A DNA stretch of 64,000 nt from Heterodontus francisci (Eukaryota), in NCBI RefSeq assembly GCF_036365525.1, contig NC_090399.1, forward strand, positions 49,570,430 to 49,634,429, given 5' to 3'. The notes beneath the pieces were generated by a model. That model was not told where the DNA came from. It made no database searches and worked only from the letters and a program-made list of their open reading frames with translations. Of this stretch, positions 1 to 25,596 are shown in pieces (within the stretch, counting starts at the first letter, position 1; each line of letters begins with the position of its first letter). The position numbers and the translations under genes were made by a program.

Positions 1-2110
1 AGTAGGGGAACGTTTAGGGAACAATGATCATAGTATCATCATGTTTAGATTAACTTTGGAAAAGGTCAAGGAGAAACTGGAGAAAAATATAGAATGGGAG
101 GAGGACCAATTTCAGTGGGTTGAGGACCAATTTCAGTGGGTTGAGAATGGATCTGTCCCAGGTAAATTGGAATCAAAGATTGGCAGGCAAATCTGTAGTC
201 TATAATATGCCTTTAAAGATGGGATGGTTTAGATACATTCCAAGTACAGGGTGAAAGGTATGGAAGAAAAGCCAAAGCTCTCTGGATGATGAAAGAGATA
301 GAGGGTAAGATGAAGCAGAAGAAGGGTGCATATGACAAGTTTCAGGTTGATAATACAAATGAGAACCAGGCTGAATATAGAACGTTCAGAGGGAAAGTGG
401 CAAAAGAAATGAGGGGAAAAGAAACAGTACGAGAAGAGACTGGCAACTAACATAAAAGGGACTTGAAAAGTATTCTATAGGCATATAAATAGGAGAAAGG
501 AGATATGAGTAGGCTAAAAATTTATAAAGAGATAGTATTAGAGAGGCTGACTGTACTTAGAGTTGATGTTACCAGGACTACATGGGATGCATCCAAGGAT
601 GCTGAGGGAATTAAGGTTGGAAATTGCAAAGGCAATGGCCATAATCTTCCAACCCTCTGTAGATACAGGGGTGGTGCCAGAGGACTGGAAAATTGCAACT
701 GTTACACCCCTATTCAAAGTAGGTGTCAGGATTAGACTAGCAACTACAAGCCAGTCTGTTTAACCTCAGTGGTAGGAAAGGTATTAGAAACAGTAATCCG
801 GGATAAAGTTAATAGTCACTTAGACAAGTGTTGATTAATTAAAGGAAAGCCAGCATGGATTTGTTAAAGGCAAATCATGTTTAGCTAACTTGATTGAGTT
901 TTAAGAGGTAACAGAGATTATTGATGATGGTAATGCGCTTGATTTGTTGTATATGCACTTCCAAAAGGAGATTGATAAAATGCCACATTATAGGCTTGTC
1001 AGCAAAGTTGCAGCTTATGGAATAAAAGGGACAGTGGCAGCATGGATACAAAATTATCTAAGTGACAGGAATGAGAGAGGAGTAGTGGTGAACTGTTGTT
1101 TATTTTTGGACTGGAGGAAGATATACAGTGGGGCTTCCCAGGAGTCAGAGCTAGGACAACAGCTTTTCCTGATTAAATATTAATGACTTGAACTCGGGTG
1201 TACAGGGCATTTTCAAAATTTTCAGATGAAACAGTACTTGGTGGCATAGTGAACTGTACAGAGGATAATGATAGATTTCAAGAGGACATTGACAGGCTGA
1301 TGGAATAGGTGGACACATGGCTGATAAAATTTAAAGGAGAGAAGTGCAAAGTGATACATTTTGGTAGGATGAACAAGGAGAGGCACTATAAAGTACAGGT
1401 TACAATTCTAAAGAGTGCAGAAACAGACAGACCTGGGGATATACGTACACAAATCATTGAAGGTGGCAGGGCAGGTTGAGAAAGTGGTTAAAAAGACAAT
1501 AAGGGATCCTCAGCTTTATAAATAAAGGCATGGAGTACAGAAGCAAGGAAGTTATGGTAAACCTCAACTGGAGTATTGTGTCCAATTCTGGGCATGCATT
1601 TAGGAACAATGTGAAGGCTTTAGAGAGGGTGCAGAAAAAAATTAACGAGAATGGTTCCAGAGATGAGTAACTTCAGCTATGTGGAATAGATTGGAGAAGC
1701 TGGGGCTATCTTCCTGAGAGATGACAAGGTGAGAGGAGATTTGGTAGAGGTGTTCAAAATCATGAGGATTCTAAATATAGAAATAAAGAAACTGCTCCCA
1801 TTGTCAGAACAGTTGGGAACTAGAGGACACAGATTAAAGTGATTGGCAAAAGAAGCAAAGGTGACATGAGGAAAACCCTTTTTATGCAGAGAGTGATTAG
1901 GATCTGGAATGCACTGCCTGATGATGGAGGCAGATACAATCATGGCTTTCAAAAGGGAACTAGATAAGCACCTGAAGGTTAAAAATTTGTAGGGCTATGG
2001 GGAAGGGGCTGGGGTGTGAAACTAGCTAAATTGTTCTTGCAGGGAGCCAGCATGAGCTCGAGGGGCCAAGTGGCCTCCTCTGTGGTATAACCATTTTATG
2101 GTTCTATGAA
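1..2110 (+). mobile_element. Degenerate CR1-clade LINE (end of endonuclease, RT, 3' UTR); internally deleted, frameshifted
   Basis: Fragments VPEDWKIATVTPLFK, FQKEIDKMPHYRL, GASQESELG; 3' tail ccattttatggttctatg; 21-bp tandem duplication gaggaccaatttcagtgggtt at 101-142. Confidence 0.9.
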
Positions 2111-2134
2111 ATTCACATTTCCACCTTTATAATG

Positions 2135-2639
2135 TGGCAGTACTCTCAGAGGCAGAGCTCCCAAGTATGTTGGCACTAATCAAACAGAGGCGGCATTGGT
2201 GAATCAAACACATCCACAGGATGGAAGATGGTTGCATAGCCAAGAACCTTCTGTATGGTGAGGTAGCCGGGACCAGATGACCAGTAGGGCGCCCAAAGCT
2301 ATCCTTCAAGGATGCTTGCAAGCATGACATGAAGGCCCTAAATGTCGACAATCACACTTGGGACTCACTAGCTGATGAAAGAGGGAAATAGCAACACACC
2401 CTGTGGACACTGTGTGCACTACCACGATGACCAGTTGCGACAGCAGCTTGGCAATACGCGCCAACGTCAAAAACAACAAGTGTCACTTGGTAGCTTCATG
2501 TGCAGCACTTGTGGCAGAACCTGCATCTCAAAGATTGGCCTGCGCAGCCATTTGCAAAGGTGCTCCAAGAAAAGAGACCTCACCTAAATGGATTGTTTGT
2601 TGCCTGTCCATCATCTTCCGTAGATGAAAGGATGTCAAC
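2135..2639 (+). mobile_element. 5'-truncated RTE-clade LINE, 3' fragment
   Basis: HIHRMEDG..KNLLYGE..GRPKLSFKDACKHDMK and C-terminal CSTCGRTC.SKIGLRSH zinc finger; 11-bp TSD CCTTTATAATG at 2124-2134 and 2640-2650. Confidence 0.85.
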
Positions 2640-2879
2640 CCTTTATAATGGAATCTGCCACCATAAGCCTCTCATGCTAAAATTACACCTTCCTACCCAC
2701 AGTGGCACTGTCAGACTATGGCTTCACATTCCCCAGGTAAACTGCAATGCTCCAATCAAATCTACTTTACTGTTTCCCAATTGAATATATTCTGTTATAA
2801 ATCTCTCTCTATATTAGAAATCTTATGTACTAACTCTCCACACAACCTTACTTTGTTCTAATTTATTTTTTTTCCTATT

Positions 2880-3245
2880 AATTCATGATCAAAATCATGA
2901 AAGTCTTGAATAGAGTGATTAAGGAGAAACTGTTTCCTATGGCAGACAGGTCAGTAACCAGAGGACACAGATTTAAGGGAATTAACAAAAGAATCAGAGG
3001 TGACATGAGGAGATTAGTTTTAATGCAACAACTTGTTATGATCTGGAATGCACTGTACGAAAGAGTGCTAGAAGTAGATTGAACAATAACTTTCAAAAGT
3101 TACTTGGATTGATACTTGAAGGCTAATTGCAGGAATATGGGAAAAGAACAATGGAGTGGCACTGATTGGATAGTTCTTTTGAAGTGCCATCACATTCACA
3201 GTGGGCTAAATGGCATCATTCTGTGCTGTATCATTCTGTGACTCA
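2880..3245 (+). mobile_element. CR1 LINE 3' fragment
   Basis: KIMK..LFP..TRGHRFK..IWNAL motif plus CR1-type tail. Confidence 0.85.
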
Positions 3246-3397
3246 ATATGCCAACATTTCAATGGGAATTGCTGAGGTAAATTAGGCTGAAATGCCAATA
3301 TCTGTCTGGTGATGGAACTGCAATGCCTCAGTGTTATATTGGGCCAACACTTCAGCCTTTATTTCTGAAAAATACTCATGTATAAACTAGCTCTACA

Positions 3398-6300
3398 TTT
3401 TTTTTCTTCATTCACGGGATGTGGGCGTCGCTGGCCAGGCCAGCATTTATTGCCCATCCCTAATTGCCCTTCAGAAGGTGGTGGTGAGCTGCCTTCTTGA
3501 ACCGCTGCAGTCATGTGGGGTAGGTACACCCACAGTGCTGTTAGGAAGGGAGTTCCAGGATTTTGACCCAGCGACAGTGAAGGAACGGCGATATAGTTCC
3601 ATGTCAGGATGGTGTGTGACTTGGAGGGGAACTTGCAGGTGGTGGTGTTCCCATGTATTTGCTGCCCTTGTCCTTCTAGTTGGTAGAGGTCGCAGGTTTG
3701 GAAGGTGCTGTCGAAGGAGCCTTGGTGCATTACTACAGTGCATCTTGTAGATGGTACACACTGCTGCCACTGTGCGTCAGTGGTGGAGGGAGTGAATGTT
3801 TGTAGATGGGGTGCCAATCAAGCGGGCTGCTTTGTCCTGGATGGTGTCGAGCTTCTTGAGTGTTGTTGGAGCGGCACCCATCCAGGCAAGTGGAGAGTAT
3901 TCCATCACACTCCTGACTTGTGCCTTGTAGATTGTGGGACAGGCTTTGGGGAGTCAGGAGGTGAGTTACTCGCCTCAATATTCCTAGCCTCTGACCACAG
4001 TATTTATATGGCTACTCCAGTTCAGTTTCTGGCCAATGGTAGCCCCTAGGATGTTGATAGTGGGGGATTCAGCAATGGTAATGCCGTTGAATGTCAATGG
4101 GAGATGGTTAGATTCTCTTTTGTTGGAGATGGTCATTGCCTGGCACTTGTGTGGCACTAATGTTACTTGCCACTTATCAGCCCAAGCCTGGATATTGTCC
4201 ATGTCTTGTTGCATTTCTACATGGACCACTTCAGTATCTGAGGAGTTGCGAATGGTGCTGAACATTGTGTAATCATCAGCGAACATCCCCACTTCTGACC
4301 TTTTCATTGAAGGAAGGTCATTGATGAATCAGCTGAAGATGGTTGGGCCTAGGACACTACCATGAGGTACTCCTGCAGTGATGTCCTGGAGCTCAGATGA
4401 TTGACCTCCAACAATCACAACCATCTTCCTTTGCGCTAGGTATGACTCCAGCCAGCGGAGGGTTTTCCCCCCGATTCCCATTGACCTCAGTTTTGCTCGG
4501 GCTCCTTGATGCCATACTTGGTCAAATGCTGCCTTGATGTCAAGGGCAGTCACTCTCACCTCACCTCTTGAGTTCAGCTCTTTTGTCCATGTTTGAACCA
4601 AGGCTGTAATGAGGTCAGGAGCTGAGTGGCTTTGGTGGAACCCAAACTGAGCATCACTGAGCAGGTTGCTGCTAAGCAAGTGCCGCTTGATGGCACTGTT
4701 GATGACACCTTCCATCACTTTACTGATGATTGAGAGTAGGCTAATGGGGTGGCAGTTGGCCGGGTTGGATTTGTCCTGCTTTTTGTGTACAGGACATACC
4801 TGGGCAATTTTCCACATTGCAGGGTAGATGCCAGTGTTGTAGCTGTACTGGAACAGCTTGGCTAGGGCACAGCAAGTTCTGGAACACAGGTCTTCAGTAC
4901 TATTGCCGGAATATTGGCAGGGCCCATAGCTTTTGCAGTATCCAGTGCCTTCAGTCGTTTCTTGATATCACGTGGAGTGAATCGAATTGGCTGAGGTTTG
5001 GCATCTGTGATGCTGGGGACTTCAGGAGGAGGCCGAGATGGATCATCATCTCGGCACTTCTGGCTGAAGATTGTTGCAAATGCTTCAACCTTATCTTTCG
5101 CACTGATGTGCTGGGCTCCCCCATCATTGAGGATGGGGATATTTGTGGAGCCACCTCCTCCAGTTAGTTGTTTAATTGTCCACCACCATTCATGGCTGGA
5201 TGTGGCAGGACTGCAGAGCTTAGATCTGATCCGTTGGTTATGGGATCGCTTAGCTCTGTCTATCGCATGCTGCTTATGCTATTTGGCATGCAAGTAGTCC
5301 TGGGTTGTAGCTTCACCCGGTTGACACTTCATTTTGAGGTATGCCTGGTGCTGCTCCAGGCATGCCCTCCTGCACTCTTCTTTGAACCAGGGTTGGTCTC
5401 CTGGCTTGATGGTAATGGTACAGTGGGGGATATGCCGGGCCATGAGGTTACAGATTGTGGTTGAGTACAATTGTGCTGCTGCTGATGGCCCACAGCGCCT
5501 CATGGATGCCCAGTTTTGCATTGCTAGATCCGTTCGAAATCTATCCCATTTAGCACAGTGATAGTGCCACACAATGGACGGTATCCTCAATGTGAAGGCG
5601 GGTCTTCATCTCCACAACGACTGTGCGGTGGTCACTCCTACCAATACTGTCATGGACAGATGCATCTGTGGCAGGCAGATTGGTGAGGACGAGGTCGAGT
5701 ATGTTCTTCCCTCGTGTTGGTTCCCCCACCACCTGCTGCAGACCCAGTCTAGCAGCCATGTCCTTTAGGACCCGGCCAGCTCGGTCAGTAGTGGTGCGAC
5801 CGAGCCACTCATGGTGATGGACGTTGAAGCCCTCCACCCAGAGTACATTTTGTGCCCTTGCCACCCTCAGTGCTTCCTCCAAGGGGTGTTCAACATGGAG
5901 GAGTACTGAGTCATCAGCTGAGGGAGGGCGGTAGATGGTAATCAGTAGGAGGTTACCTTGCCCATATTTGACCTGATGCCATGAGACTTCATGAGGTCCG
6001 GAGTCGATGTTGAGGACTCCCAGGGCAACTCCCTCCCTACTGTATACCACTGTGCCACCACCTCTGCTGGGTCTGTCCTGCCGGTGGGACAGGACGTACC
6101 CAGGGATGGTGATGGCAGTGTCTGGGACATTGTCTGTTAGGTATGATTCCGTGAGTATGACTATTTGAAGCTGTTGCTTGACTAGTCTGTGGGACAGCTC
6201 TCCCAACTTTGGCACAAGCCCTCAGATGTTAGTAAGGAGGACTTTGCAGGGTCGACAGGGCTGGGTTTGCTTTTGTCGTTTCCGGTGCCTAGGTCGATGC

Positions 6301-6668
6301 TGGGTGGTCCGTCCGGTTTCATTCCTTTTTATAGACTTTGTAGTGGTTAGGTACAACTGAGTGGCTTGCTAGGCCATTTCAGAGGGCATGTAAGAGTTAA
6401 CCACATTGCTGTGGGTCTGGAGTCACATGTAGGCCAGACCAGGTAAGGACAGCAGATTTCCTTCCCTAAAGGACATTAGTGAACCAGATGGGTTTTGACA
6501 ACAATCGTTTCATGGCCATCATTAGACTAGTTTTTAATTCCAGATTTTTTTATTCAGTTCAAATTCCACCTTCTGCTGTGGTGGGATTCGAACCCATGTC
6601 CCCAGAGGAATACCCTGGGTCTCTGGGTTACTAGTCCAGTGATAATACCACTACGCCACCGCCTACCC
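3398..6668 (-). mobile_element. Full-length tRNA-headed single-ORF LINE (jockey/CR1-group APE endonuclease + RT), copy A; disrupted by stops and frameshifts
   Basis: EN motifs LLTNI*GL, ILTESYL, RQDR..RGGG, IYRPPS, FNVHH, LDLVLTN, IGRSDH; RT motifs WKIAQVCPVHKK, QFGF, ALDIKAAFDQVWH, GVPHGSVLGP, MFADD; A-rich 3' tail near 3398; tRNA-like 5' head. Confidence 0.92.
6570..6668 (-). promoter_or_regulatory. tRNA-Ser-like head with Pol III A and B boxes at the 5' end of the LINE
   Basis: A box TGGCGTAGTGG (6658-6648); B box GGTTCGAATCC (6594-6584); anticodon arm CTGGA-CTAGTAA-(T/C)CCAG; long variable arm CCCAG...CTGGG. Confidence 0.85.
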
Positions 6669-7052
6669 TTCTCACTTCTCACTTTCACAGTTTTCTATCA
6701 ATGTTGGTACGTAACTATAAATAATATTACAACATGCCAGAATGTCTGACATTAATTTGGAGACTAAATTATGTTTGCACAGTGTCGGCTCGTATTCACA
6801 GTCCTCCAATTTTGTTACAATGGGCTTGACGCCATGCAAAGAATTTTGGCTTTGGATAATAGTAGAAAATGGGTGATATTGGATCAGGTAATGATTACAC
6901 ACTCCACTTGCTATCCATTTCCACTGAAGTCAATCAAAGGGAAAATTGAGCAAAAATTATATTGAGCAGTTGATTCAATATTGCTCATTTTACACAATCG
7001 CACAAAGATAATTTATTCCTAATGGAAAGAACATTGCAGTCAGTGCACTATT

Positions 7053-7181
7053 ACAAAAGCAAAATACTGTGGATGTTGGAAATCTGAAACAAAAACAGAA
7101 AATTCTGGAAATGCTCAGCAGGTCCGGTTGTGGAGAGAGAAACAGACATAACGTTTCAAGTTTATCGACCTTTCATCAGAA
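7053..7181 (-). mobile_element. Penelope-like element terminal-repeat fragment with hammerhead-like core
   Basis: Same repeat family as the tail of the Penelope RT fragment at 34030-34128; - strand CTGATGA-AAGGTCGATAAACTT-GAAA-CGTTA. Confidence 0.7.
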
Positions 7182-8091
7182 TAGCCACTGTTGATTACCA
7201 TATGGCATTGGAGCCTCAAAATTACATATTTACATTGCATATCATACATGTGTTCATCAATATCATTCAACAAATGCAAGAATATTAATTAAAAAACCTT
7301 AAATTCAATCTGACAATATAATTCAATAAACACAATTTAGGTGATATGATTCTATAAATGTAATATTTCCAATGTCATTCAATATAAGAATAATACTGTG
7401 CATAAATATATTAACATGATTAAGGGGTGGGGGATTTTAAATTGGGGCCACAGTGTAAAATGGTCAATATCAAATCAGTGTGCTGTTATACATTGCCCAA
7501 CATTCAATAAATATTGTGTTGGGGTATTTGCAACTTTTATCATCAAGTGGCCAATAGTCAATCGGTCGCCACTTTACAACAGGCCTGATTTTCAGAAAAG
7601 CCACTGAAGTGTCAGCTGATTCACAATTGGCCATATTTCACCTGTTTTATACCATGCCCAATTATCGATTGAGGTGTACCCTGATTCATGGGCGGCCATA
7701 TTCACCTGGTGTTAAAAATTAACATTTCTTCTGGGAGTGAAACTCCAATGCAACTGGGGTGGTAGCAGAAAAGTGGTCAGTTGTACAACCTTGTCCATCA
7801 TTCTTTAAAGTGAATGGAAAGGAAAATCAGGCAGGGTGTACGAAGGGTGGCCTCTATGCTACTGATCATTTTGCATTCCACCAAAACTGAATTTCACCCC
7901 TAGTATTACTAATATCATTCATTAAGATCAACGTTGCCTTTCAGAGATGGGGTAAATTGGAAAATACTGATTAGACACATTATGATGTTCCTTTCTATTG
8001 AAAGGGAACCTCATCGCTGATGTTACTCTATCCCCTAAAGTTAAAATAACCCCAGTCATTCCCTACATTCACTTCAAATGAATACACTCAC

Positions 8092-8352
8092 TTGCTGTTT
8101 CGTTGATTTTCTGTAGATATCTATCAACCTGTCCCTTGATGAGTCCATGGAAGCCAGCTTGAGTGATGGTGTACATTTCCCAGTATTTCTTGTCAAATGC
8201 TTCCTCCATCCATTGCTGTCTTGGAATAGTTGCATTCATATTTTTGTCGTAATAGTCTATCTCACAGCCATCCAAAAGCCCCATCACACTATACTCCGGG
8301 AGATCAGCGCTCCCATGGTTCAGGGTGTAGTGATACAGCAGAGAATGAGACT
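8092..8352 (-). CDS. MHC class I(-like) alpha chain, exon 2 (alpha-1 domain), probably a non-classical lineage
   Basis: 261-nt phase 1/phase 1 exon between acceptor ttctgtcttag and donor A|gtgagt; open frame (E)SHSLLYHYTLNHGSADLPEYSVMGLLDGCEIDYYDKNMNATIPRQQWMEEAFDKKYWEMYTITQAGFHGLIKGQVDRYLQKINETA with class I hallmarks H3, Y7, G26, D29, D37, P47-R48, W51, Y59-W60 and the N86 glycosylation site. Confidence 0.95.
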
Positions 8353-9617
8353 CTAAGACAGAATTTCAAAACAAAAATCCCCATCATTGCAAATCAAATA
8401 TTAAAAATGTTAGCTTGCTGAACAACTTTACAAAGAGTTTGAAATAATAACTAAGTCGGAAGAACTTACGCAGAAAAATGCAAGACCATTGGATATTTTG
8501 CCATCACACCCCCAAGTTGAATCAATTCAGAAAAGGCAAAACAAGCCTCAATAGCAAAGCATTTACAGCTCATCTAATTTGTCACTCACAACCTTTAATT
8601 TATTAACTGCATGTCTGGGGATGCAGCAGTGCACCCAGCATTACGGTACTACGCCATGCAGAATCCATCCCTGGTATGAGTCGGGTGATTTGGTTTCAAC
8701 CCACTGGTTGCAGCTGAGCTGAAATGGAGAAAGTCACCTATGCTTCCTTCTCCTCCTCTGCTCCATAGTCGCCATTTCAGGGGATTGCGCGTGCATGTGG
8801 CGAGGATAAAATGGGTCCAAGTTATGATGCCTACTATTGAAACAGGAAAATGAAATTGCTCCAATTCCCACATACTATGGAACTCTATCAGGAATACGGG
8901 GTAAAAGTGGGAACCATGTGCTGCCCATTTTCTAGCTGATGCAATTCATTAATGACCATGTGAAAAAATTTACATTTCAACTCGAGTCACTCTAATACCC
9001 TCACTAAGGAAATATCTTGCAATAGTGGTTATTCCTCCTGCATGAGCCAGAATAGTAATGGGTTGCAGACTATTGAACTTTGAGGGAAACAATCCAGGAA
9101 AACTGTCCTCAAGCATTCTCTACACTCAGGCAGTTTCCATCAAGGGTAATATGACAATGAACAGCAGTGAAAATCTCCGGCTGATTTTTTTTTTTGCTGA
9201 GCCCTAGCCCTGATACCATCGGGCAAATGGTGATGTGGACACAACCTCCCAACTGACGTCATCTCTATTAGCATTCAGCAGGCACCTGCTCCACCTGTAT
9301 GGTCCAGTACCACATGCACAATTGAGAAGTTAGAAGGATAATTGCTGTTTTCCTTGAAATCATACCAGGGTAGATTTTCAACTTGCCTCCCGGTCCTTAA
9401 CTTGGTGTCGTGTATCAGCTGCCAGTTATAGAAACCACTCAACTTTAATTTCCAACAACTTGAAAACCAATCAAAATCGGACACTTCCTACAATATGCAA
9501 CCATACTGCAAACTATCCTGTCATTTGGAAGTAATTTTCACTCTCACCGCTGAGCGGCAAACCGGTAGGACAGGATCAGTAGCCCATTTTACAGCCTATT
9601 AAATTGCCTTTCCACTA

Positions 9618-10600
9618 AAATAAAAGCAAAATACTGCAGATACTGGAAATCTGAAATAAAAACTGAAGGTGCTGGAAATATTCAGCAGTTAAGGTTCAGT
9701 AAAGAAAATAAGAACATGTTTCAGAAAGTTCTGATGAAAGGTCACAAACGTGAAATGTTGGCCGTAATTTTATGTTGGGTAGGAGGCCCCGCCCACCGGC
9801 CAAAGAGTCGGGGGCGAGCCCGCCTCAGCAGGGCCTGGGAGCCAAGCTATGATTTTTCCTGGCCCAGGCCGGTAAATGGCCTCGGACAAGAATTCTATAC
9901 CTCTGAGGCAGGAAGTCCTTCTCCTTAGAGCTGCCCGTCAATCAGCATGTCAGCAGTTCTCAGTCCCAGCAGCGCCACTGGGAGCGGTGGCTACGGCTGG
10001 GACTGCAGCCAGGGAGTGCAGCAAGAGGCAAACCGGCCCCAGAGAAAAGGTATGTTTGTGGGGCCTCACCAGGGATAATTGCTGGACCTCGGCAACGCAA
10101 GGGGATCAGTTGGGAGGAGCGGAGTGAATGTCTTTCAGTGGGGGTGGTTGGACCATGGTGGGGGGAGCCATCCTTGGGGCACAAGGTGCCCAATCAAGAG
10201 GACCACACCCCACCACTCGCCCGCCCCCGCCAGCCGCAAGGAGGCCGCCAGGTTTTAATTGGGAGGCTGAGCTGCCCACCAGTAAAATACCAGCGACGGC
10301 AGGAGAAGGCCCTTAAATTGCAGTTAATTGGCCACTTAAGGGCCTTAATTGGCTTGGGGAGGGGAGGCCATTTCTCGCCACCACTGCCCCGCGTAAAATT
10401 GCAGCAGGGTGAGAAGGCAACAGGATCGGCATCCCCACCTCGCACTTAATTTTACGACCACCACCCCTCCCACCCGCCCCGCCTCCAGCCCACTCCTGCG
10501 AGGAGTGGCCTGTAAAATTCCAGCTGTTAGTTCTGTTTCTTTCTCCACCGATGCTGCCAGACTTGCTGAGTATTTCCAGCACTTTCTGTTTTTATTTTTG
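9618..10600. mobile_element. Palindromic Penelope-derived short repeat, interrupted by a MITE
   Basis: Left arm aaagcaaaatactgcagatactggaaatctgaaat; core ctgatgaaaggtcac at 9731; inverted arm resumes at 10525 (tgttagttctgtttct...ccagcactttctg). Confidence 0.7.
9760..10524. mobile_element. GC-rich non-autonomous DNA transposon (MITE-like)
   Basis: Imperfect TIRs gccgtaattttatg / tgtaaaattccagc; flanked by duplicated tgtt; related partial copy at 34130-34710. Confidence 0.7.
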
Positions 10601-10704
10601 TCATTCCATTAAATTGGGTGAACAGCTTCTGAGCAGCAGTTTTCTACCTGATGGTGAAAGTGAAAATTGTCCCCTTTTGTCTGAACTGCTGACCACAGAG
10701 GTGA

Positions 10705-12559
10705 GGACACCTTCCATCACTTTTCTGATGATCAAGAGTAGACTGATGAGGGGGTAATTGGCCAGATTTGTCCTGCTTTTTGTGGACAGGACATACCTGG
10801 GTAATTTTCCACATTGTCGGATAGATGCCAGTGTTGTAGCTGTACTGGAACAGCCTGACTCGGGGCAAGCCAGTTCTGGAGCACAAGTATTCACGACTGC
10901 TGATGGGATGTTGTCAGGGCCCATAGCCTTTGCTGTATCTAGTACCTTCTGCTGTTCCTTGATATCACATGGATTGAATCAAATTGGCTGAAGACTGACA
11001 TCTATGACGCTGAGCACCTCAGGAGGAGGCCAAGATAGATCATCCACTCAGCACGTCTGGCTAAATGTCTTTGCACTGATGTGCTGGGCTCCCCCATCAT
11101 TAAGGCTGGTGATGTTTGTGGAGCCTCCTTCTCTAGTTAATTGTGCAATTGTCCACTGCCATTTATGACTGAATGTGGCAGGACTACAGAACTTTCATCT
11201 GATCCATTGGTTTGGGATCGCTTAGCTCTGTCTATCGCATGCTGCTTCTGCTGTTTAGCATGCATGTAGTCCTGTGTCTTCGCTTCACCAGGTTGGCCCC
11301 TCATTTTTATATATGCCTGGAGATGCTCCTGGCATGTTCTCCCGTACTCCTCATTGAACCACAGTTGATGCCCTGGCTTGGTGGCAATGGTAGAATGAGG
11401 GATATGCCGTGCCATGAGGTTACAGATTGTGCTTGGATATAATTCTGCTGCTGCTAATTGCCCACAGCACCTGAACGCCTATTTCTGAGCTGCCAGATCT
11501 GTTCTGAATCTATCCCATTTATTACGCTGGTAGTGCCACACAACACGATGAAAGATATCCTCAGTGTGAAGACCAGACAACATCTCCACAAGGACTGTGC
11601 GGTGATCACTCTCACCAATACTGTCACGGGCAGATGTATCTGAGACTGGTGGATTGTTGAGGGTGAGGTCAAGCAGGCTTTTCCCTCTTATTGGTACCCT
11701 CATCACCTGTCGCAGGCCCAGTCTTGCAGCAATGTCCTCAAGACTCAGCCAGCTTGGTCAGTGATGGTGCTACCCAACCACTGTTGGTGGTGGGCATATT
11801 AGTCCCCCACCCAGATTACATTCTGTGCCCTTGTTACCCTCAGTGCTGCTTCCAAGTGGTGTTCAACATGGAGGGGTACTGATTTATTAACTGAGGGAGG
11901 GCGGTAGGTCATAATCAACAGGGTGTTTCCTTGCCCATGTTTGACCTGATGCCATGAGACTTCATGGGGTCCGGAGTCAATGTTGAGGACTCCCAGGGTA
12001 ACTCCCTCCCAACTGTTTGCCACTATGCCACCACCTCAGGGATGATGATGGAAGAGTCTTGGACATTGGCTTAAGATAGGTCAGGCTCTTGCAACTAGTC
12101 TGTGGGACAGCTCTCCCAATTTTGGCACAAGTCCCTAGATAAGGACTTTGCAGGGTGTGCCATTGTCATTTCCGCTGCCTAGGTCGATGCCAGGTAGTCC
12201 GTCTGGTGTTATTCTTTTCTGACTTTTCTGTAGCGGTTTGGTACAACTGAGTGGTTTGCTAGGCCATTTCAGAGGGGTAGTTAACTCTGTGGGTCTGAAG
12301 TCACATGTCGGCCAGACCAGGTAAGGATGGCAGATTTCCTTCCCTCAAGGACATTCGTAAACCAGATGGGTTTTTACAACAATCCAGAAGTTTCATTGTC
12401 ATCATTAATGAGACCTACATTTAATTCCATTTTTTTAATTAATTAATTGGATTTAAATTCCACCAACTGCCATGGTGGGATGTTAACTCATGCCCCCACA
12501 GCATTAGTTGAGGCCTCTGGATTACTAGTCCAGTAACATTACCACTTTGCCACCTCCCC
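10705..12559 (-). mobile_element. tRNA-headed LINE copy B (head + EN + start of RT; 3' part missing)
   Basis: Collinear with copy A 4705-6668, including the head (12245-12559) and EN fragments HQVKHGQGN..YRPPS and IGESDH. Confidence 0.9.
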
Positions 12560-12649
12560 TTCCACATTGACCACAACATTGAGCTGCTCCCCTTCCCTAT
12601 TCAAAATGTTCCACTGAATGTTTTTCGTGATACACCTGTTTGGTTCTAT

Positions 12650-13770
12650 AACCATTAATAACCGTGGCTAACATAAATCTAGTGACATTTTTGATTGACC
12701 CCAAGCCTCAACAAGTTGTTGTATTGGGAGTTCCAGACTTCCACTCCCCTTCATGTGAAGAAATGCTTCCTAACATCAATCCTAAATGGTAATTTTAAAG
12801 TTATGACCCTCGATTGGTCTCCCACAACAGAGGAAATAGTTTCTCTCCATCAATCCTGCTAAATCCTTTAATCATCGTAGACTCTCCAATTAGATCACCC
12901 CTTAGTCTATTATAGTCAAGAGAGTACACACCTTATCTATGCAATCTGTCCTCATAATGTAATCCTTTTTTGCTTCTGCATAATTCTGATGTATCTGTCA
13001 AACCTCTGCCTTCCTGAGGTGCAGTGCCCAGAACTGAAATCAGTTCTCCAGATGAGGTTGAACCAGAACTCTGTACAGCTGTAGCACAACTTCCACCTCT
13101 TTGTATTCCAGCCACCTTGAGATAAAGGCCAATATTCCAGTAGCCTTTAAATTCATTCTTTCTACCTTTTCGTGATTTCTGTATTTAAATTCCTAAATTG
13201 CTCTGTTCATGCTCAGATCCTAGCTTCTTGCCTTTTACAAAATGCTCTGATCTATCTTACGTATGTCCAAAGAGGATGACCTCACACTTTGCCACATTGA
13301 AGTCTACCTAACCACTCACTTAGTCTATCAATGTCCCTTTGCAAATTTCTGTACCCATCTTCACTATTTGCTACCTAAATAGTGCTGCCTAACCTGGTGT
13401 CATCAGAAACCTTGGAGATGTGGCTCCCTTTTCCTTCATCTAAGCCATAGTGAAAAGCTAAGATCCTACAAGTCACATCCAGCCAATTTCAGTAGATACG
13501 AATACCTCTATCTCTGTCTTCTAACTCCTAGTCAATTCCCTAACCAATCCAATAGATTGTCTCCAATTCTGCACAGCTTCATTTTTGTTAATAATCTCCC
13601 ATGTGGATACTTACAAATGCCTTCTGGAAGTTCATGTAAATAATATCCATAGGCAATCCTTTTTGACCATGTTAGTTACCTCCTCACAAAATTCAACTAG
13701 GTTCATTAGACATGACTTACCCTTTGCGAATATACCCTAGCTCAATCCAATATGTTCATATTTGTCCAAA
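12650..13770 (-). mobile_element. Old CR1 LINE RT/3' fragment
   Basis: Degenerate CR1 RT and C-terminal motifs (GLHYEDRLHR; gcatttgtaagtatccacatg). Confidence 0.75.
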
Positions 13771-14829
13771 TACTGAGTCTGGCTATGAGGGACATTTTTC
13801 TGAAATTAGCTTTCAAAATGTTCACTGAGAATGCAATTCGGCATCACAAAAATTGCTACCTAGCCTTACAATCTTAATCAGAAGGTGACTGCTTACATCA
13901 TCTCAACCTCTGTCATTTGTCACCTTGTGTTTTTGAACCAGGGCCTTACCCTCCATATAACCCAGCAAGTATTTCGATATCATTTTAAAACCATTGTTGC
14001 AGATAATATCTACGATCATATGAACATGGTCAGGTGAGGTCTTAATATTTGAGGATCACACATGATTGTCAACACTGGATTGTGTCTCTTGTAGGAAGAG
14101 GAGAGTTATCTCCATGAGCACCACAGGAATAGAAAGCACAGTTTCGCCAGCCTTTATTCTGGAATGCACTCAGTCAGTCAAGTTTTGCAGAACTGCTGTT
14201 TAGCAAGGCCTTAACAGACCGAACACATTTTATCCACAGTATGGGACTCATGCAGTCAACAGCAAAGAGACTTGCTTCCCATTCATTTGAACTGGAAATC
14301 AACTGAGCATTGAGGGTTGAAAAACTATTGAACACTCATTGGTTCTGTATACATAAGATTTGTATTTCATAACTACAAGTTATGGCCATTTTCTGCACAA
14401 GATTCTACAGGGAGGTATCTGAAAAACTACAAAACAACACAGTAAAGGCTAATTGGAAACAAGACTTTGAACAGTCTCAAATTGTTTTGACTACTTTATG
14501 GTATAGCTCGATAAGTCAATGCATTGACTTTGTTAATTAGGATGCAGATAAAGATACTGATTAACTACCACTGGCTGTTCGAATTTGTACCCAGAAAACC
14601 TTACACCAATATTTTGTTTCCTTGAGAGAAGTATTACTTTTTTGCATTTTCTTACATAATAAACTAACTCCTAAAATTAAATTAAATTGATTTTCATAAT
14701 TTTAGAATTTAAATAAAAACCAGTTCAATTTGAATCCAGGAACAACTTGCTCACACAACAGAATGTGGAACCCTGTGCCCAGAAGTTCACAGATACAGAA
14801 TTAAGTGAAGTGTTTAGACAAAAAAAGAT

Positions 14830-15170
14830 AGCTACTTCATCCAACCCTATCAACATATCCTTTCACTCCTTTCCCTCTCATGTACTTATTTAGCTGATCC
14901 TTAAAGACCTCAATGTTAGTGCCTCAACTGCCCCATGTGGCACGTTCTTCCTCAGAAATAACTATAACCCCAATTTGGTGTCATCCGCAACTTTGAAATT
15001 GTACAAATCGTTTGCATAAATGGTGAACAGCAGTGCTCTCAGTAGTGATCCCAATGGAGCACTACTTCCCACTTTCTGGTAGTCTGTGTAACTACATTTA
15101 ACCCCTACTCATTGTATTCTCTTTTGTCCATTCTGCTACTTGTCCCCTGACTCCATATACTTTGACCTTT
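14830..15170 (-). mobile_element. Old CR1 fragments
   Basis: ttgcggatgacaccaaattgg (ADDTKL motif) on the - strand; CR1-like tail. Confidence 0.6.
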
Positions 15171-15199
15171 CTCTCTCTCTTTGTCATTGTTACTACTGA

Positions 15200-15884
15200 C
15201 ATGGAACACAAAAGTCCGAGTGTTTCAAGCCTGTGTCCTCAGTACCTTGCTCTATGGCAGCAAGGCCTGGACAATGTATGTCAGCCAAGAGCGACGTCTC
15301 AACTCATTCCATCTTCACTGCCTCCAGAGCATCCTTGGCATCAGGTGGCAGGACCGTATGCAGAAGTCCTCGAGGCGGCCAACATCCCCAGCATATACAC
15401 TCGACTGAGCCAGCTTGGGTGCTTGAGATGGCTTGGCCATGTGAGCCGCATGGAAGTTGGCAGGATCCCCAAGGACACATTGTACAGCGAGCTCGTCACT
15501 GGTATCAGACCCACCGGCCGTCCATGTCTCCGCTTTAAAGACGTCTGCAAATGCGACATGAAGTCCTGTGACATTGACCACAAGTCATGGGAGTCAGTTG
15601 CCAGTGATCGCCAGAGCTGGCGGACAGCCATAAAGGTGGGGCTAAAGAGTGGCGAGTCGAAGAGACTTAGCAGTTGGCAGGAAAAAAGATAGAAGCGCAA
15701 GGAGAGAGCCAACTGTGTAACAGCCCCGACAACCAATTTTATCTGTAGCACCTGTGGATGAGTCTGTCACTCTAGAATTGGCCTTCATAGCCACTCCAGG
15801 CGCTGCTTCACAAACCACTGACCATCTCCAGGCACTTACCCATTGTCTCTCAGGACAAGGAGGCCAAAGAAGAAGAAGAAGAAG
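15200..15884 (+). mobile_element. RTE-clade LINE 3' fragment
   Basis: LSTLLYGSKAW, LRWLGHVSRME, RIPKDTLYSEL, GRPCLRFKDVCK; C-terminal zinc finger; (AAG)n tail. Confidence 0.9.
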
Positions 15885-18220
15885 CCTTTCTTTCTCTCTT
15901 CCTGCTTCTTTCATTCACTCTCTCTTCCTGTCTCTTTCTCTCTCTCTATCTCTCTCAGACTCTTTATCTTCCATCTCTATCCTTGCACTTTGTGCTTCTT
16001 TGTGTCGCTGTCTTTTATATCTATCTATATCTATCCCCATTTCTTTCTCTTTCTCTCTCTGCCTTTGTACCTATCTCTCTCCTTCTTTGTCCCAAATATT
16101 AATTATGTCACTGTCTCTGTCTTTTCCCCTGTCTTTCATTCTCTCTCTCCTCTCTCTTATTCCATCTCAGTCACTGTCCTTCTGTTTTCTCTTTATCACT
16201 ATCTCTTTGACCCTGTGTGTCTTTAATTCCTTCACTCTCCCTCTGTCCATCACTCTCTCTCTCTCTCTATCTCTGTTTCTTTCCCAGTTTCTATTTTTCT
16301 TTCTCTTTATCTCTATTATTTTTCTCTTACTCTTTCTGCCAAAATTTCTCTCTTATCCCCATTATATAGGCTTCATTGAAAAGTACTCTGAAACATTTCA
16401 GACTCACAGGAGGGAGAGGAAGTGAGTAGAGATGAAGAGTGGAGGGGAAGTAGAATGGAGGGAAGGGAGAGCATGGAACAGAGGGGGGGAGTGGAGAAAC
16501 GGAGACAGAATGGAGAAAGGGGAAGAAAGTGTAGGAAGGGGGGCAGGAGGAGAGGGCACAGAGTGAAGGACAAGAGAGTGGAGGGGTGGGAGACAGTGGA
16601 GGAGAGGGTAAGGTGAGGAAAGAGGAGAGAGTGGAAGGGATGGAGTGCAAGGGGAGGAAGGGGATAGAGAAGGGGCAGAGAGAGAGGGCAGAGGGAAAGG
16701 GGCAATTGGTAGGAGGAGAATGGAGGGGGAGTGGAGATCTAGGGGAGGGGAAATGGGGAGAGGGAAGGGAAGGAGATGGGAAGGGATGTGGAGGGGAGGG
16801 AGTGGAGGAGAGGGTGAATGTGGAGGGAGGGATAGTGAACTGGGAGTGGACAGTGGAGAGGGGTGAAGGGAGAGTGTACAAGGGAGGGGAGTTAGTGGCT
16901 AGAAAGGAGAGAAAGGTGAAAGAGGAATGGATGGGAAAGGGAGGGTGAAATTTGGGTGGGGAGGGAGTATAGGGGAAGGAGTGGGATAGGGTGGAGAGTA
17001 AGGGAGAAAGGTGTTGACGCGTGTCGGGGGAGGGGAGCAAGAGCGTGGTGTGGAGGGGGATAGTAGAGGAGCAGAGGAGAGAGGGCTGGAGGGAGAGGAG
17101 GGGAGGGGAGGAGGAGGGGAAGGGTTGAGGAGAAGAGGGGGATGGGAGGGGAAGTGGAGTGGGGCTTGGCGGATCGGAGGGGGAGGTGGAGAAATATCAG
17201 GGAGAGGAACGGAGAGAATGAAGTGGAGGGTGATAGAGTGGAGGTTCGGGAGAGTGTGAAGAGGAAGGGGAGAGTTTGGATGGCAGGGACAGAGTGGAGA
17301 AGGAGTGGAGGCTGAGAATTGAAGGAGAAGAGTGGGCGAGCGTGGACTCGGGGAAGGGGGAAGGGGAGAGAATGAAGGGTGGACAGTGTTTCTCTCTCCA
17401 CCAATGCTCTTTGGCCTTATCAACATTTCCAGTATTTTCTGTTTCTGCTTCCGATTTCCATTATCTACAGTATTTTGCCCTGGATCCCTGGTTTACTGAA
17501 TACTGAAGCAGTTACAGACTCCCTCACACCAGGGCTGAGAAAATATTCTGGTTTATTGAGTCCAGCAACATTGATTGTTACGTGGTCCCTATCTCACCGT
17601 CCTCTCTCTATCCCTGTCTCTGTTTCTTTTGTTTCATTCTCTCATTTCTTCCCTGTCAATTTCACTATGTTCCTTTATATTTCTCTCTCTCTCTGTATCT
17701 GTCTATCTTTCACCCTATCCCTGTATTTGTCTCTGTCTCTAAATATACCTTTCTGTGTGTGTGTCTCTCTCTCACTCTTTCCATCTCTCTTTACTTTTCT
17801 GACCATATTTCTTTTGATGTCCCTGTCACTTGTTCCCTTTCTTTAGCACTCTCCTCTCTCTCTTTGTATTTTTATCTTTGTCTCTCCTCTTACTCACTCT
17901 CCCTTTCACTCTCCCTATCTCTCTGTTACAAGCATTACTGAATCTGCCTCTTTCTCTCTCTGTCCATGTGTTCTTTTTCTGTGTCTCTAGTTTTGTCTTT
18001 CATTGTCTGTCTCTCTGACTTTCAGCATCGCTCTCTCTGTTTCTCTCAGTTACTGTTTCACTGAATTTCATCGTCTCTCTCTAACCTTCTACATTTCTTG
18101 CTCTAAGTGTCTCTTTTATATCTCTTTTGTTATTTCTATCTTTGTCTCTCTTACTTTCTCTCACTCACTGTCTTTTTCACTCTCTCTCTTTCTCAATTCC
18201 TCTCTCTGTTCTGCTCTCCA
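15885..18220. repeat. Low-complexity block: CT-rich (15885-16345), GA-rich (16405-17380), CT-rich (17590-18220)
   Basis: Base composition read directly; a Penelope-type repeat arm lies at 17385-17480. Confidence 0.9.
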
Positions 18221-18561
18221 AAGTATTCATGAATGAAAAGTATGCTGAAATGTTTGTGTCTCACCATTTAAAATGACGAGTATCAAATTGCATTTCTGAA
18301 ACAGTATGTGTTATATTGAAGATTCAAATAAGGGCTGGAAATCTTTCAGATAAATTTAGCTTCTCAACCTGAAAGATTTTAGGGTTTAAAGATGTGCTGG
18401 GATCTGAGCTCAAATATTGTTTCCATGCAGACATTCCAGCATGTTGGAGCTCCCTGTTACTTTTGCGAGACAGGGATGAGATGGGATTGTTCAATGTAAT
18501 CTCAGGCCTCACCATGCAGGTGCGGACTTCAGACTTAGAAGTGCTCAGGGCTGAATTTCTA

Positions 18562-19705
18562 AGGACATAAGCAATAGGAGCAGGAGTAGGCCATTCAGCC
18601 CTTCAAGCCTGCTCTGCCGTTCAATGAGATCATGACTGATCTTCCACTTCAACACCATTTTCCTGCACTATCCCCGTATTCTTTGACATTTTCAATACGT
18701 AGAAATCTATAGGTCTTCGTCTTGAATTGGTTCTGGACTCCCCAGCCAGGGGAAACATCCTTCCTGCATCAACCGTGTCGAGCCCTGTAAGAATTTTGCA
18801 TGTTTGAATGAGATCATCTCTCATTCTTCTAAACTCCAGAGAATGAAGGCCCTGTCTATTTAATCTTTCCTCAAAGGACAATCCCTCCATCCCAGGAATT
18901 AGTTTGGTGAACCTTCGTTGCACTCCCTTTATGGCAAGTATATTTTTCCTTAGGTAAGGAGACCAAAACTGCATACAATACTCCAGGTGCAGTCTCACCA
19001 AGGCTCTATATAATTGCAGTAAGACATCTTTATTCCTATACTCAAATACTCTTGTAATGAAGGCCAACATACCATTTGCCTTCTTAATTGCTTGCTGCAC
19101 CTGCATGTTAGCTTTCAGTGACTCATAAACAAGGACACCCATGGCCCTTTGAATTTCAACACTTCCCAGCCTCTCACCTTTCAAGAAATACTCTGTATTT
19201 CCGTTTTTCCTACCAAAGTGGGTAGCCTCACATTTCTCCACATTGTATTCCATCTGCCAAGTTTTTTCTCACTTGCTTAGCCTCTCCAAATCCCCTTCAA
19301 GCATCTTTGCATCCTCCTCACAACTCACACTTCCATCTAGTTTTGTGTCATCTGCAATCTTGGAAATATTACATTTAATCCCACATCCAGATCATTGATA
19401 TAGATTGCGAATAGCTGGGGCCCAAGCACTGATCCTTGCGGTAACCCACTAGTCACAGCCCGCCAACATGAAAATGACCCATTTATTCCTACTCTGTTTT
19501 CTGTCTTTTAACCAGTTCGCAATCCATGCCAGTATATTCCCCCCAATTCCATGTGCTCTAATTTTGTTTACTAACCTTTTGTGTGGGACCTTTTCAAAAG
19601 CTTTCTTAAAATCTAAACAGACCACATCCACTGGTTCAACCTTATCTATTCTGCTAGTTACATCTTCAAAAGCTCCAACATGTTTATTAAATATGATTTC
19701 CCTTT
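18562..19705 (-). mobile_element. CR1 LINE RT-3' fragment
   Basis: LDFKKAFEKVPHKRL, LYRALVRLHLEYCMQFWSPY; CR1 tail. Confidence 0.92.
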
Positions 19706-20536
19706 CATTTACACCAAAAGGATAACCCGAGTAGCATTGCCAACTTCAGCGCCCCTGGTGCAGGCCCATACGGTGCACCAGGAAATTCTACATCATTAGC
19801 TTGTGATTCTTTGTTTTTTTCTTTTCAATGACAGATGGAAGGTACAGAATTCCCTAATATGCAGCTTGGATGTAATTCAGAAGTGGAAAATTCCTGTCAT
19901 ATTTCACTGAAGTAGTGAACAATTGGGCTGATTAAAAAAGCAAATAAAATCACATTCCAACCATTAATCTCAAGCCAATGACTTTGAATGGGACTGTTGG
20001 AGGACAGACTCAGTATTGTATCAGTCTGGCCCGTGATAACACCAAGATTGAATTGCACTTTGACACATTGCTTGACAGCTGATCAGAATAGCACAAATGA
20101 TTGGAGTAAATTTGCGTTATCTGTAATTTGAATCCTGCTGCAAAGTACACTCAAGCTCACAGTATCTGGATTATTAGTCCCAACTTCAGTAATGTAAACA
20201 CTGTACTAATTTTCCCCATCGAACATAGAGCTGCCACAAACATCTAAGTCCTACCTGAAGAAAGCTTTAAGTCTGTACAAGCTTGTTGGAGAACTATCTT
20301 GCCACTATCTGTCCAGTAGAAACATATTGCAACGTGCAGCAGTACCATATACTGTGTGTGAGGTTAGTCTGTGATAGAGCAGTGTATTTCAGTAAGGTAG
20401 TAAGTGGCGACTTAATTCATCTGGTGTGTTCAGGGTGTCTGCTAGTTGCCCAACTTTTGGAAGGAACCTGTGTTTTGATGAGAGCAAAGGGATTTCATTT
20501 GTTCATTAGTCTAAAAGGTGGTCTTATTGAAACATA

Positions 20537-22223
20537 TGTCCCAGCCACATGGTGTTACATGGGTGGTTCCCACTGTTCAACTCCCCATCTGTCTGCAACA
20601 AGTGCATTTGTATTAAAAGTTCAATCCCTTGATGTTATATTTTTCAAATAACCAGACAGTGACAGGTTTTCTTGTAGGTTTTAAAAAACAGAAAGTCAAT
20701 TGTTTATTGATCAATACGCCTTATCCCAAATTTGACACAACTTCATTCACTCACGCATTTGTTCATACACACGAGCGTGCACAAAAACACACATACATAC
20801 ACACGAAACAGACAGAGAAGGGAAAGAGGTAGATGGGTTTCGTGGCGGCAAAGGGTTATGATAAACCTGTTGCAGGCCTGAGATGATTGTAGATTTCTGT
20901 CTTGATTGTAGGTTCTGTTGAAGATGACCGGTCACTTCTAGCTCTTCCAGCTCTGCTGTATTATGTAGATGTTAGATATTTTCATCAGGGAAGATGTTTT
21001 CTAGCTTGCTAGAATGCCAGCTGTTACAAGTAGCTTCACCTTCTGGGTCAGTCTCTTAGGTCTTTTTTTTAAAATAAAACTGTCACTTCTCACCTTCTGT
21101 TAGGAGACATTCTGGTTTCTTTCCCATGGTAATCACACAATAGCCAAGGATGTAACTACTTCACACCTCCTGTGTTTTAGAAGAAGACATTCAACTCTGG
21201 AATGTTTTTAGGATGGCTGCATTTTCTGACAAAGCAACCTCTAGGTAGCTCAGTACTTGCACATGCACAAATGCAGCCTCATGCATTGAAACGTCACTAT
21301 CTGCGACATTTTTGGCAGCTGCCAGTAATAAAGATGGTGCTGCTCAAATTATCACAAAAACAAAAACAAATTAAATCCAAGTCCCCACAAAGGCTGCGAT
21401 CGCTGCCTCCATCCCACCTCCAACAGTACTCCGCTCCCTCCTGCCATCGCACTTCTCGTCACCGTTGCCTTCTGCACCCATCTGTTCGCTGCTTGCTCCC
21501 GCTATTGCCATCTTTTTTCCCGCATGGGGGAAGCGGGGGTGAGAGAGTGACAAGATGGCGAGGGGAGGGAGACTGCGATCGGGACGGAGCAGGGAGCAGA
21601 AGCAGGAGGGAGCAGGAAGCAGAAGTAGCAAAGAGTGGGGCAGCAGAGGCAGAGCAGAAGGGAGGAAGCGGTCAGGCTGGGAACGAGTGGCCCAGAGGTC
21701 GGGGAAGGGGGTGAAGCAGGAGCGAGCAAGTGGCCGAGGGAGGAGAAGTGGCAAGGTGGGAAGTGAATGGCCCACAGGTAGGTGGGAAGGGGGTGAAGCG
21801 GGCAGCGAGCAGCCGAGGGGGGAGAAGCAACGAGGCGGGGAGCAAGCGGTGAGCAGGCGTTGCAGTACGCAAAGACGCTTTCGTGCATATGTGCGAATTA
21901 GTCCTGGCAAACTGGGTGCTGATGTAGGCTGCACATGCGCAGCACCATACTGACAGCAGGGGTCCGTTCTGCACAACATGTCCGAATCTAGGAGCACTCT
22001 GATGATGTCGGTGCTGGACTGCATTGTCAGGAGTCACTTTGTTTAAGGTTAGGTGCGAGACTGTGTGAATACAAAAAATGTAATCCCAGTTTCTTTGGCA
22101 GCCATTTTGGGCCATTGTTCACTTTTAAAAAATAAACGTTCATTTTTTCTTAAATCCGTTTTCATAAGTCCGTTTTTATTTCTTAACTCTTCAGACATCT
22201 TCGCACCTCCAATGTCCATGACA
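20537..22223 (-). mobile_element. Solo LTR (gypsy-type) inserted into a CR1 fragment, with a nested insertion
   Basis: TGTC...GACA termini; 4-bp TSD cata/caga; splits the CR1 sequence ttattgaaacata|taagatcctgagg; - strand AATAAA near 20705. Confidence 0.7.
21226..22030. mobile_element. GC-rich non-autonomous element nested in the solo LTR
   Basis: Terminal inverted repeats CTGACAAAGCA / TGCATTGTCAG; GC-rich interior unlike the flanking LTR. Confidence 0.5.
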
Positions 22224-22227
22224 CAGA

Positions 22228-22600
22228 TAAGATCCTGAGGGGACTTGACAGGGTGGATGCTGAAAGGATATTTCCCTTATGGGAGAGACTACAACGAGGG
22301 GACATTGTTTAAAAATTAGAGGTCTCCCATTTAACATGGAGATGAGGAGATTTTCTTTTCCTTTTAGAAGGTTGTTAGTCCGTGAAATTCTCTTCCCCAC
22401 AGAGCAGTGAAGGCTGGGTCATTGAATATTTTTTAGGCTGAGTTAGACCGAATCTTGATTGACAAGGGAGTCAAAGGTTATAGCAGGAAGACCAGAAAAT
22501 AGAGTTGAGGCCACAATCAGATCAGACATAGTCTTACCAAATGGCAACGCAGTTTCGAGGGGCTGAATGGCGTACTCATGCTCCTAATTCACATGTTCAT
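22228..22600 (+). mobile_element. CR1 3' fragment (continuation of 20515-20536)
   Basis: KILRGLDRVD, TRGHCLK motifs; CR1 tail. Confidence 0.85.
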
Positions 22601-23049
22601 AAAGGGATAGTGCAGCAAAAGAGTGAAGAGAGTGGAAATAAAAGCAGAAAAATGCTGAAAATATTCAGCAGGTCTGGCAACAACTGTAGAGGTAGAAATA
22701 ATTTAACATTTCAGGCCAAGATAATTTAACATTTCAAGTAAAGATATCAGCTGGAAGAATTAAGGCATAAGATAGAATAAAGAGGCAAAAGAGAAACCCG
22801 TAGCCTATGTTTTCACTGCCTCAGTATTAGCAGGTCTCTGTGCGCTTTCTGCATTGTGTACTTTTAATGTAGATTTCCAACATTTGCAGTTTACTTGTTT
22901 CCATCTTTATTGAAAGAATCTGAAGTGATAATGACATTTTATCATATGCGTTCCCAACCCACCTCCTTCCTAATAAGTAGTTTTAGTCATCTTTGAATAT
23001 ACGTGATTTGGGAGGGGCAGGGGATGGATTCGCCTACAATACTGCTTCT

Positions 23050-25447: not shown

Positions 25448-25596
25448 CTCTAGAAACAGAACTTGAGAAATCCCTGTCATACAGTTCTGCTTCCCCTCAA
25501 GGCTAGTTCTCGTCTGCTGGAGTTATTCATACTCACAGTTCACCCTCTCCCTTTCTACTTAGTTACTTAATTCCATGTGAGCAGCTTACACATGAA

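What the first reader, a model, noticed from the sequence alone, without database searches (positions are those of the whole stretch)
8092..8352. Divergent, apparently intact MHC class I alpha-1 domain with non-classical features
Seen, using HLA numbering aligned by eye: Y7 and Y59 are kept, but there is K at 84 (R in non-mammalian classical molecules), L at 27, bulky Y at 63, an extra Cys near 31 and a second N-glycan sequon (NAT) besides N86. The helix MYTITQAGFHGLIKGQV is unlike classical shark UAA. Inference: a non-classical lineage that may bind non-standard ligands. The ORF track shows only a 72-aa piece of this exon.
Basis: partly seen in the sequence, partly recalled or inferred. Interest (0 to 1): 0.7.

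Follow-up and report, generated by a model that had tools for sequence, protein, structure and literature searches.

The report
Horn shark UGA class I gene
This is one exon of an intact, spliced, single-copy shark immune gene of the already named UGA family (a nurse-shark version has been crystallised), which has lost half of the usual peptide-gripping residues and likely displays lipids rather than peptides, so it is real but of a known kind.

Summary
It belongs to a complete six-exon class I gene, identical to an NCBI horn shark model labelled 'MR1-like', single-copy, and spliced in public contigs. It is the orthologue of the named elasmobranch lineage UGA: 68% identical to PDB 9CH4 ('shark nonclassical MHC class I, UGA'), inside a 100/99 clade with skate UGA; placement with classical UAA is rejected (p-AU 6e-37). 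Four of eight peptide anchors plus W167 are replaced, the groove is aromatic, and the short tail ends in a YxxΦ motif. A 2025 review reports lipid binding for UGA as a personal communication; I did not test it. The scan found UGA before in other genomes. More interesting is a neighbouring sister gene 111 kb away, conserved in sharks and rays, for which I found no name; earlier scan notes also saw it.

The parts
8092..8352 (-). Exon 2 of the UGA class I gene: alpha-1 domain, 261 nt, phase 1 at both ends
   Evidence: AG/GT ends and open frame; covered end to end by contigs of runs X1, X5, X16
27712..27820 (-). Coding part of exon 1 (signal peptide). The NCBI model starts at 27820; orthologues begin at the second Met (about 27784). 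One contig extends the exon to 27990
   Evidence: tblastn of P0001; GT donor; contig X4 covers 27712-27990; alignment
8353..27711 (-). Intron 1, 19,359 nt, GT..AG
   Evidence: Joint 8352-27712 in 4 of 4 runs laid, 3 studies
1..8091 (-). Intron 2 (runs on 1 kb past the window's left end). Beyond it, in G000:C29 coordinates: alpha-2 49569140-49569415, alpha-3 49568646-49568912, transmembrane exon 49566472-49566576, tail exon from 49552339
   Evidence: Exon reconstruction reproduces P0001; alpha-1 and alpha-2 adjoin within single contigs of X1 and X5

Best explanation
The exon encodes the alpha-1 domain of the horn shark's intact, spliced, single-copy UGA gene, a non-classical MHC class I heavy chain that likely binds lipids rather than peptides and is predicted to recycle through endosomes, as CD1 does. 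Shown here: gene structure, splicing, single copy, UGA orthology, position in the class Ib cluster, loss of anchors R84, T143, Y159, Y123 and of W167, conserved aromatic groove residues (Y9, F70, F99, F143, Y155, F156), and a tail of a few basic residues ending in YNAV. Inferred: it pairs with beta-2 microglobulin, holds a lipid in the groove (from a second-hand report on nurse shark UGA), is internalised through the tyrosine motif to exchange cargo, and shows it to T cells. Odds: UGA identity about 0.97; lipid-type ligand about 0.75; endosomal sorting by the tail about 0.6.
For: Sequence: 9CH4 E 4e-132, next hit 2e-56. Structure: model pLDDT 80.6; best match 9CH4 'shark nonclassical MHC CLASS I, UGA', 68% identity, rmsd 1.8 A over 268 columns; Z 28.3, rmsd 1.7, 267 aligned, next entry Z 25.4. 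9CH4 alpha-1 letters equal the row labelled nurse shark UGA in Supplemental File 10 of PMC10751288, and P0013 matches the skate UGA row nearly letter for letter. Tree of alpha-1+2: 15-protein clade with P0013 at 100/99; AU test against UAA p 5.7e-37. One DNA match in the genome. UFA-like and UDA-like exons lie 0.47 and 0.50 Mb away. Y159 replaced by L in 15 of 15, T143 absent in 15 of 15, W167 absent in 15 of 15; F99, F156, Y9 in 15 of 15, F70 in 14 of 15. YxxΦ in 7 of 15 UGA tails, 0 of 10 sister-lineage tails. CD1b, c, d use such motifs (PMC11481681 passages). PMC12562908 (passage) says crystal structure and mass spectrometry suggest UFA and UGA bind lipids, citing a personal communication.
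Against: No ligand was tested and I could not find the primary UGA paper; the lipid claim rests on one second-hand sentence. Y7, Y59, Y171, K146 and W147 are kept. A crude hydropathy count over 31 groove positions barely separates this protein (mean 0.52, 16 hydrophobic) from the horn shark UAA-like gene (0.43, 16), though the other horn shark lineages except UFA (0.69) score lower. The CD1-type Pfam model PF16497 scores 19.2 bits, under its cut-off of 35 and close to zebrafish classical UBA at 17.8. 8 of 15 UGA models lack the tail motif (some are probably alternative or mis-called last exons: P0006's tail matches the same exon in another frame). From recall, classical class I tails also carry a tyrosine at this place, so the motif need not be CD1-like in origin; shark UAA tails were not examined.
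Confidence: 0.75

Rival explanations
1. UGA presents hydrophobic peptides or lipopeptides in a narrowed groove, using the anchors it keeps.
For: Y7 (13 of 15), Y59 (14 of 15), Y171 (12 of 15), K146 (14 of 15) and W147 (15 of 15) are kept. After 9CH4 the closest folds are peptide-presenting chicken BF2 chains, and chicken YF1 with N-myristoylated ligands scores similarly.
Against: Y159, T143, W167 lost in all 15; bulky F70, F99, F143, F156 fill the groove positions; reported lipid binding.
Confidence: 0.12
2. UGA does not present antigen: it is a carrier or receptor-binding class I-like chain (as ZAG, HFE or FcRn are), and the tail motif serves uptake or recycling.
For: Strong conservation across sharks and rays (mean 65% over alpha-1+2), single copy, only 2 and 3 differences in alpha-1 and alpha-2 in a second organism; no T-cell data seen in any paper read.
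Against: Lies in the MHC class Ib cluster; intact class I architecture; review describes it as CD1-like.
Confidence: 0.08
3. It is a shark MR1 that presents vitamin B metabolites, as the NCBI name suggests.
For: NCBI name; MR1 single-chain constructs are the next sequence hits after 9CH4; Y63 and F70 align with MR1 aromatic residues.
Against: The MR1 lysine that forms the Schiff base (K43, recalled) aligns with Thr; the top MR1 scores are inflated by fused beta-2 microglobulin, and free MR1 chains score below fish and shark classical chains; Y63 is kept in only 4 of 15.
Confidence: 0.04
4. It is a divergent classical UAA allele or an orphan pseudo-exon.
For: None beyond the shared class I fold.
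Against: AU test p 5.7e-37; 31.6% identity to the UAA-like gene 16.8 Mb away; all exons open and spliced.
Confidence: 0.01

Closest known systems
Elasmobranch class Ib lineage UGA (nurse shark, PDB 9CH4; nurse shark and skate UGA rows in Supplemental File 10 of PMC10751288)
   Same: 68% identity over the ectodomain, gap-free alpha-1, same fold (rmsd 1.7-1.8 A), same clade, shared AGFHG helix motif, C31, L159, F143, F156.
   Different: Horn shark has Y at 63 where nurse shark has C, an extra sequon at N43, and Y at 81 where the other 14 UGA proteins have W.
Shark UFA (sequence of PDB 8GM8 chain A equals the UFA row of the supplement over the aligned part)
   Same: Same class Ib cluster, reported CD1-like; falls on the same side of a 100/99 split as UGA in the unrooted tree.
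   Different: Only 27% identical over alpha-1+2; the horn shark UFA is a separate gene at 50.05 Mb. UFA is a long branch, so its place is unsure.
Mammalian and avian CD1
   Same: Likely lipid ligand (second-hand), short basic tail with YxxΦ.
   Different: PF16497 below cut-off; keeps Y7/Y59/Y171/K146/W147; orthology to CD1 untested, and PMC10751288 calls it hard to assess even for UFA.
MR1
   Same: About 33% identity, aromatic groove residues.
   Different: No lysine at the Schiff-base position; identity no higher than to classical class I.
Classical shark UAA (PDB 6LUP)
   Same: Class I fold, N86 glycan, five of eight anchors.
   Different: 32-34% identity; R84, Y123, T143, Y159, W167 replaced; outside the class Ia region.

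Membership tests
Elasmobranch UGA | Closest to the reference UGA sequences and in their clade | tested here: met
   68% to 9CH4; clade with skate UGA 100/99
Elasmobranch UGA | MHC-linked, in the class Ib cluster with UDA, UFA, UEA | tested here: met
   UFA-like at 50.05 Mb, UDA-like at 50.08 Mb, UEA/UCA-like from 50.10 Mb on the same contig; labels by comparison with the supplement rows
Elasmobranch UGA | Single or low copy | tested here: met
   1 DNA match; next alpha-1 46% and next alpha-3 50% identical
Elasmobranch UGA | Binds lipid | not testable with these tools
   Only a review's personal communication
Classical class Ia (UAA) | Full set of peptide-terminus anchors (Y7, Y59, R84, Y123, T143, K146, W147, Y159, Y171) | tested here: not met
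   K84, A123, F143, L159; the UAA-like gene keeps all
Classical class Ia (UAA) | Clusters with UAA | tested here: not met
   p-AU 5.7e-37
Classical class Ia (UAA) | High allelic polymorphism, ubiquitous expression | tested here: inconclusive
   No difference in one sample, which may be the source animal; tissues not known
CD1 | Matches the CD1-type alpha-1/2 profile PF16497 above cut-off | tested here: not met
   19.2 bits vs 35
CD1 | Fold closer to CD1 than to classical class I | tested here: inconclusive
   Listed rows cannot exclude an unlisted family; groove volume could not be measured
CD1 | Tyrosine-based YxxΦ tail motif | tested here: met
   YNAV then stop, exon found with AG acceptor; function untested
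CD1 | Orthology by tree | not tested
   No CD1 sequence was among the stored proteins
MR1 | Schiff-base lysine (K43, number recalled) | tested here: not met
   Aligns with Thr

The most novel reading that the evidence does not exclude
UGA and the unnamed sister gene 111 kb beside it are a pair of lipid-presenting class I molecules older than the shark-ray split that divide the work as CD1 isoforms do: UGA, with a tyrosine tail motif, samples endosomal lipids, while the sister, with a still oilier groove, no N86 glycan, an extra invariant Cys at 99 and no tail motif, samples surface or secretory-pathway lipids; with UFA this would give cartilaginous fish a three-member CD1-like system inside the MHC.
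Probability: 0.2. Interest if true: 0.6.

Novelty: new member of a known kind. Interest (0 to 1): 0.17.

Why it matters
For the exon itself, little: it corrects a database label (UGA, not MR1) and adds a horn shark member to a lineage that already has a solved structure. The comparison shows which residues are fixed across sharks and rays (Y9, F70, F99, F156, L159, C31) and so guides ligand and T-cell receptor studies on the origin of lipid presentation. The sister lineage beside it is the better lead.

Tried and rejected
Primary papers on UDA and UEA (PMC7002201, PMC8454915) are not held. Seven literature searches found no primary paper on UGA or 9CH4 and none on horn shark class I; most subscription papers are outside the library. 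No RNA holder listed: none of 19 runs is on record as RNA, so expression rests on spliced joints in contigs, and tissue and level are unknown. Runs X8 and X12 gave only partial exon pieces. No CD1 chain appears among the rows shown by the two fold searches; that does not exclude likeness. The groove hydropathy count did not separate this protein from the UAA-like gene. Y63, K84 and the N43 sequon were rejected as lineage markers. A search with alpha-3 for further UGA copies found none above 50%; I did not identify beta-2 microglobulin from that list and ran no complex prediction. Rows left out of trees: alpha-1 tree 55 rows after dropping 16 (duplicates, partial or isoform models, 3 teleost rows); alpha-1+2 tree 38 rows after dropping up to 16 of 45 proteins; AU test on 21 of these 38. 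UGA plus sister as one clade was 98/88 on alpha-1 alone but unsupported on alpha-1+2 once UFA is included. No earlier scan note near this place.

Full report
Observation. The minus strand of 8092-8352 is a 261-nt exon, preceded by AG and followed by GT, open throughout. It scores above the Pfam MHC_I cut-off and aligns without gaps to PDB 9CH4 at E 7.5e-41. I numbered residues by counting along the HLA-A2 row of a published alignment that also holds nurse shark UGA; the roles of the numbered positions are textbook knowledge, recalled.

The gene. The window is G000:C29:49570430-49634429. A database protein, P0001 (344 aa, NCBI 'MR1-like', Heterodontus francisci), contains the exon at 100%. Its other exons map to a leader inside the window (27712-27820) and to alpha-2, alpha-3, transmembrane and tail exons 1-18 kb left of it. 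Joining five exons at their AG/GT sites reproduces the first 339 residues of P0001, and a sixth exon with an AG acceptor supplies the last five residues and the stop. Contigs of 4 of 4 runs laid (3 studies) skip intron 1 exactly; in 2 of 4 runs a single contig holds alpha-1 and alpha-2 side by side. The runs are only guessed to be RNA, but the genome has one DNA match to the exon, so a processed copy is unlikely to explain the joints.

Identity. 9CH4 is titled 'Crystal structure of shark nonclassical MHC CLASS I, UGA', released March 2026. The AlphaFold model (mean pLDDT 80.6) matches it best: 68% identity, rmsd 1.8 A; Z 28.3 against 25.4 for the next entry. The 9CH4 letters equal the nurse shark UGA row in Supplemental File 10 of PMC10751288, and P0013 matches the skate UGA row. 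In a tree of alpha-1+2 (38 rows), the gene sits in a 15-protein shark-and-ray clade with P0013 at 100/99; forcing it with the two UAA-like genes of this genome is rejected (21 rows, p-AU 5.7e-37). UFA-like, UDA-like and UEA/UCA-like genes follow within about 0.5 Mb, as PMC10751288 describes for the class Ib cluster.

Groove. Of eight peptide-terminus anchors plus position 123, Y7, Y59, K146, W147 and Y171 stay; R84, Y123, T143 and Y159 do not, nor does W167. The UAA-like gene keeps them all. Across 15 UGA proteins (three each from sawshark and sawfish) L159, F99, F156 and Y9 are invariant, F70 and G97 are in 14, C31 in 13. C31 is the only ectodomain Cys besides the two canonical pairs, so it is probably free; its role is open. 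Against an easy lipid reading: mean hydropathy over 31 groove positions is 0.52 here and 0.43 for the UAA-like gene, and the CD1-type profile PF16497 stays under its cut-off.

Tail. After five Arg-rich residues the protein ends in YNAV. A YxxΦ motif is present in 7 of 15 UGA models. CD1b, c and d use such motifs for endosomal traffic (PMC11481681). From recall, classical class I tails also have a tyrosine near here, so shared origin with CD1 is not implied.

Mechanism. Most likely a beta-2 microglobulin-associated, low-polymorphism class I chain that carries lipid in an aromatic groove, cycles through endosomes by its tail motif and shows the lipid to T cells. The lipid step rests on one sentence in PMC12562908 citing a personal communication about crystal structure and mass spectrometry of UFA and UGA; sorting and T-cell recognition are inference. 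The MR1 label is a best-hit name: the Schiff-base lysine position holds Thr (residue role recalled).

Sister gene. 111 kb to the right lies a second gene with open leader, alpha-1, alpha-2 and alpha-3 exons, 39% identical to UGA over alpha-1+2. It has orthologues in sharks and rays at 70-89% in alpha-1 (11 proteins) and forms its own 99/99 clade. It lacks N86, has F7, H59, an invariant C99, groove hydropathy 1.14-1.36 and no tail motif in 10 of 10 proteins. No row of the supplement matched it by eye and the seven searches gave no name, but figures, the thesis and subscription papers were not visible, and the authors may count it as a second UGA. Earlier scan notes describe what appears to be the same lineage in other genomes; I found it independently before reading them and did not compare their sequences.

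Papers seen. PMC10751288: passages, supplement term searches and parts 97-98 of 98; figures not visible. PMC12562908 and PMC11481681: passages only. Almeida 2020 and 2021: reference listing only (not held). Supplements of preprints were closed and may bear on the naming of the sister gene.

Verdict. New member of a known kind, interest 0.17.

Noticed in passing
G000:C29:49680835-49694271 (-), L002, L051, L052; 46-60 kb right of the window end: Separate UGA-related class I gene, conserved in sharks and rays (mean 76% over alpha-1+2), no N86 sequon, invariant extra Cys at 99, very hydrophobic groove, no tail motif; no name found.
   Followed up: partly
G000:C29:49408613-49551298 (+), L028-L043: At least five full-length and several partial single-exon seven-transmembrane receptor matches (about 58-61% to the receptor part of skate model P0016) begin about 1 kb beyond the UGA tail exon on the opposite strand; the skate model fuses UGA to such a receptor, probably a read-through annotation.
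   Followed up: partly
window 35677-58065: 22-kb tandem array of a 30-nt G-rich unit, about 745 copies, 86% matches, strong GC skew, upstream of the UGA leader exon; its stop-free frames give many spurious long ORFs.
   Followed up: no
window about 3400-6700 (-): LINE-like retrotransposon remnant with broken frames in intron 2 (judged by eye and by very high contig depth).
   Followed up: no
G000:C29:57.4-62.8 Mb and C815, C1655, C1290: About ten near-identical copies of a class I gene resembling the supplement's UAA-2 row.
   Followed up: no
window 27784-27820 (-): The NCBI model starts 12 codons upstream of the Met at which orthologues start; the shorter start is more likely.
   Followed up: partly
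P0006 tail vs G000:C29:49552271-49552339: The sawshark model's tail matches the horn shark tail exon in another frame, suggesting a mis-phased last exon that hides the tyrosine motif.
   Followed up: partly
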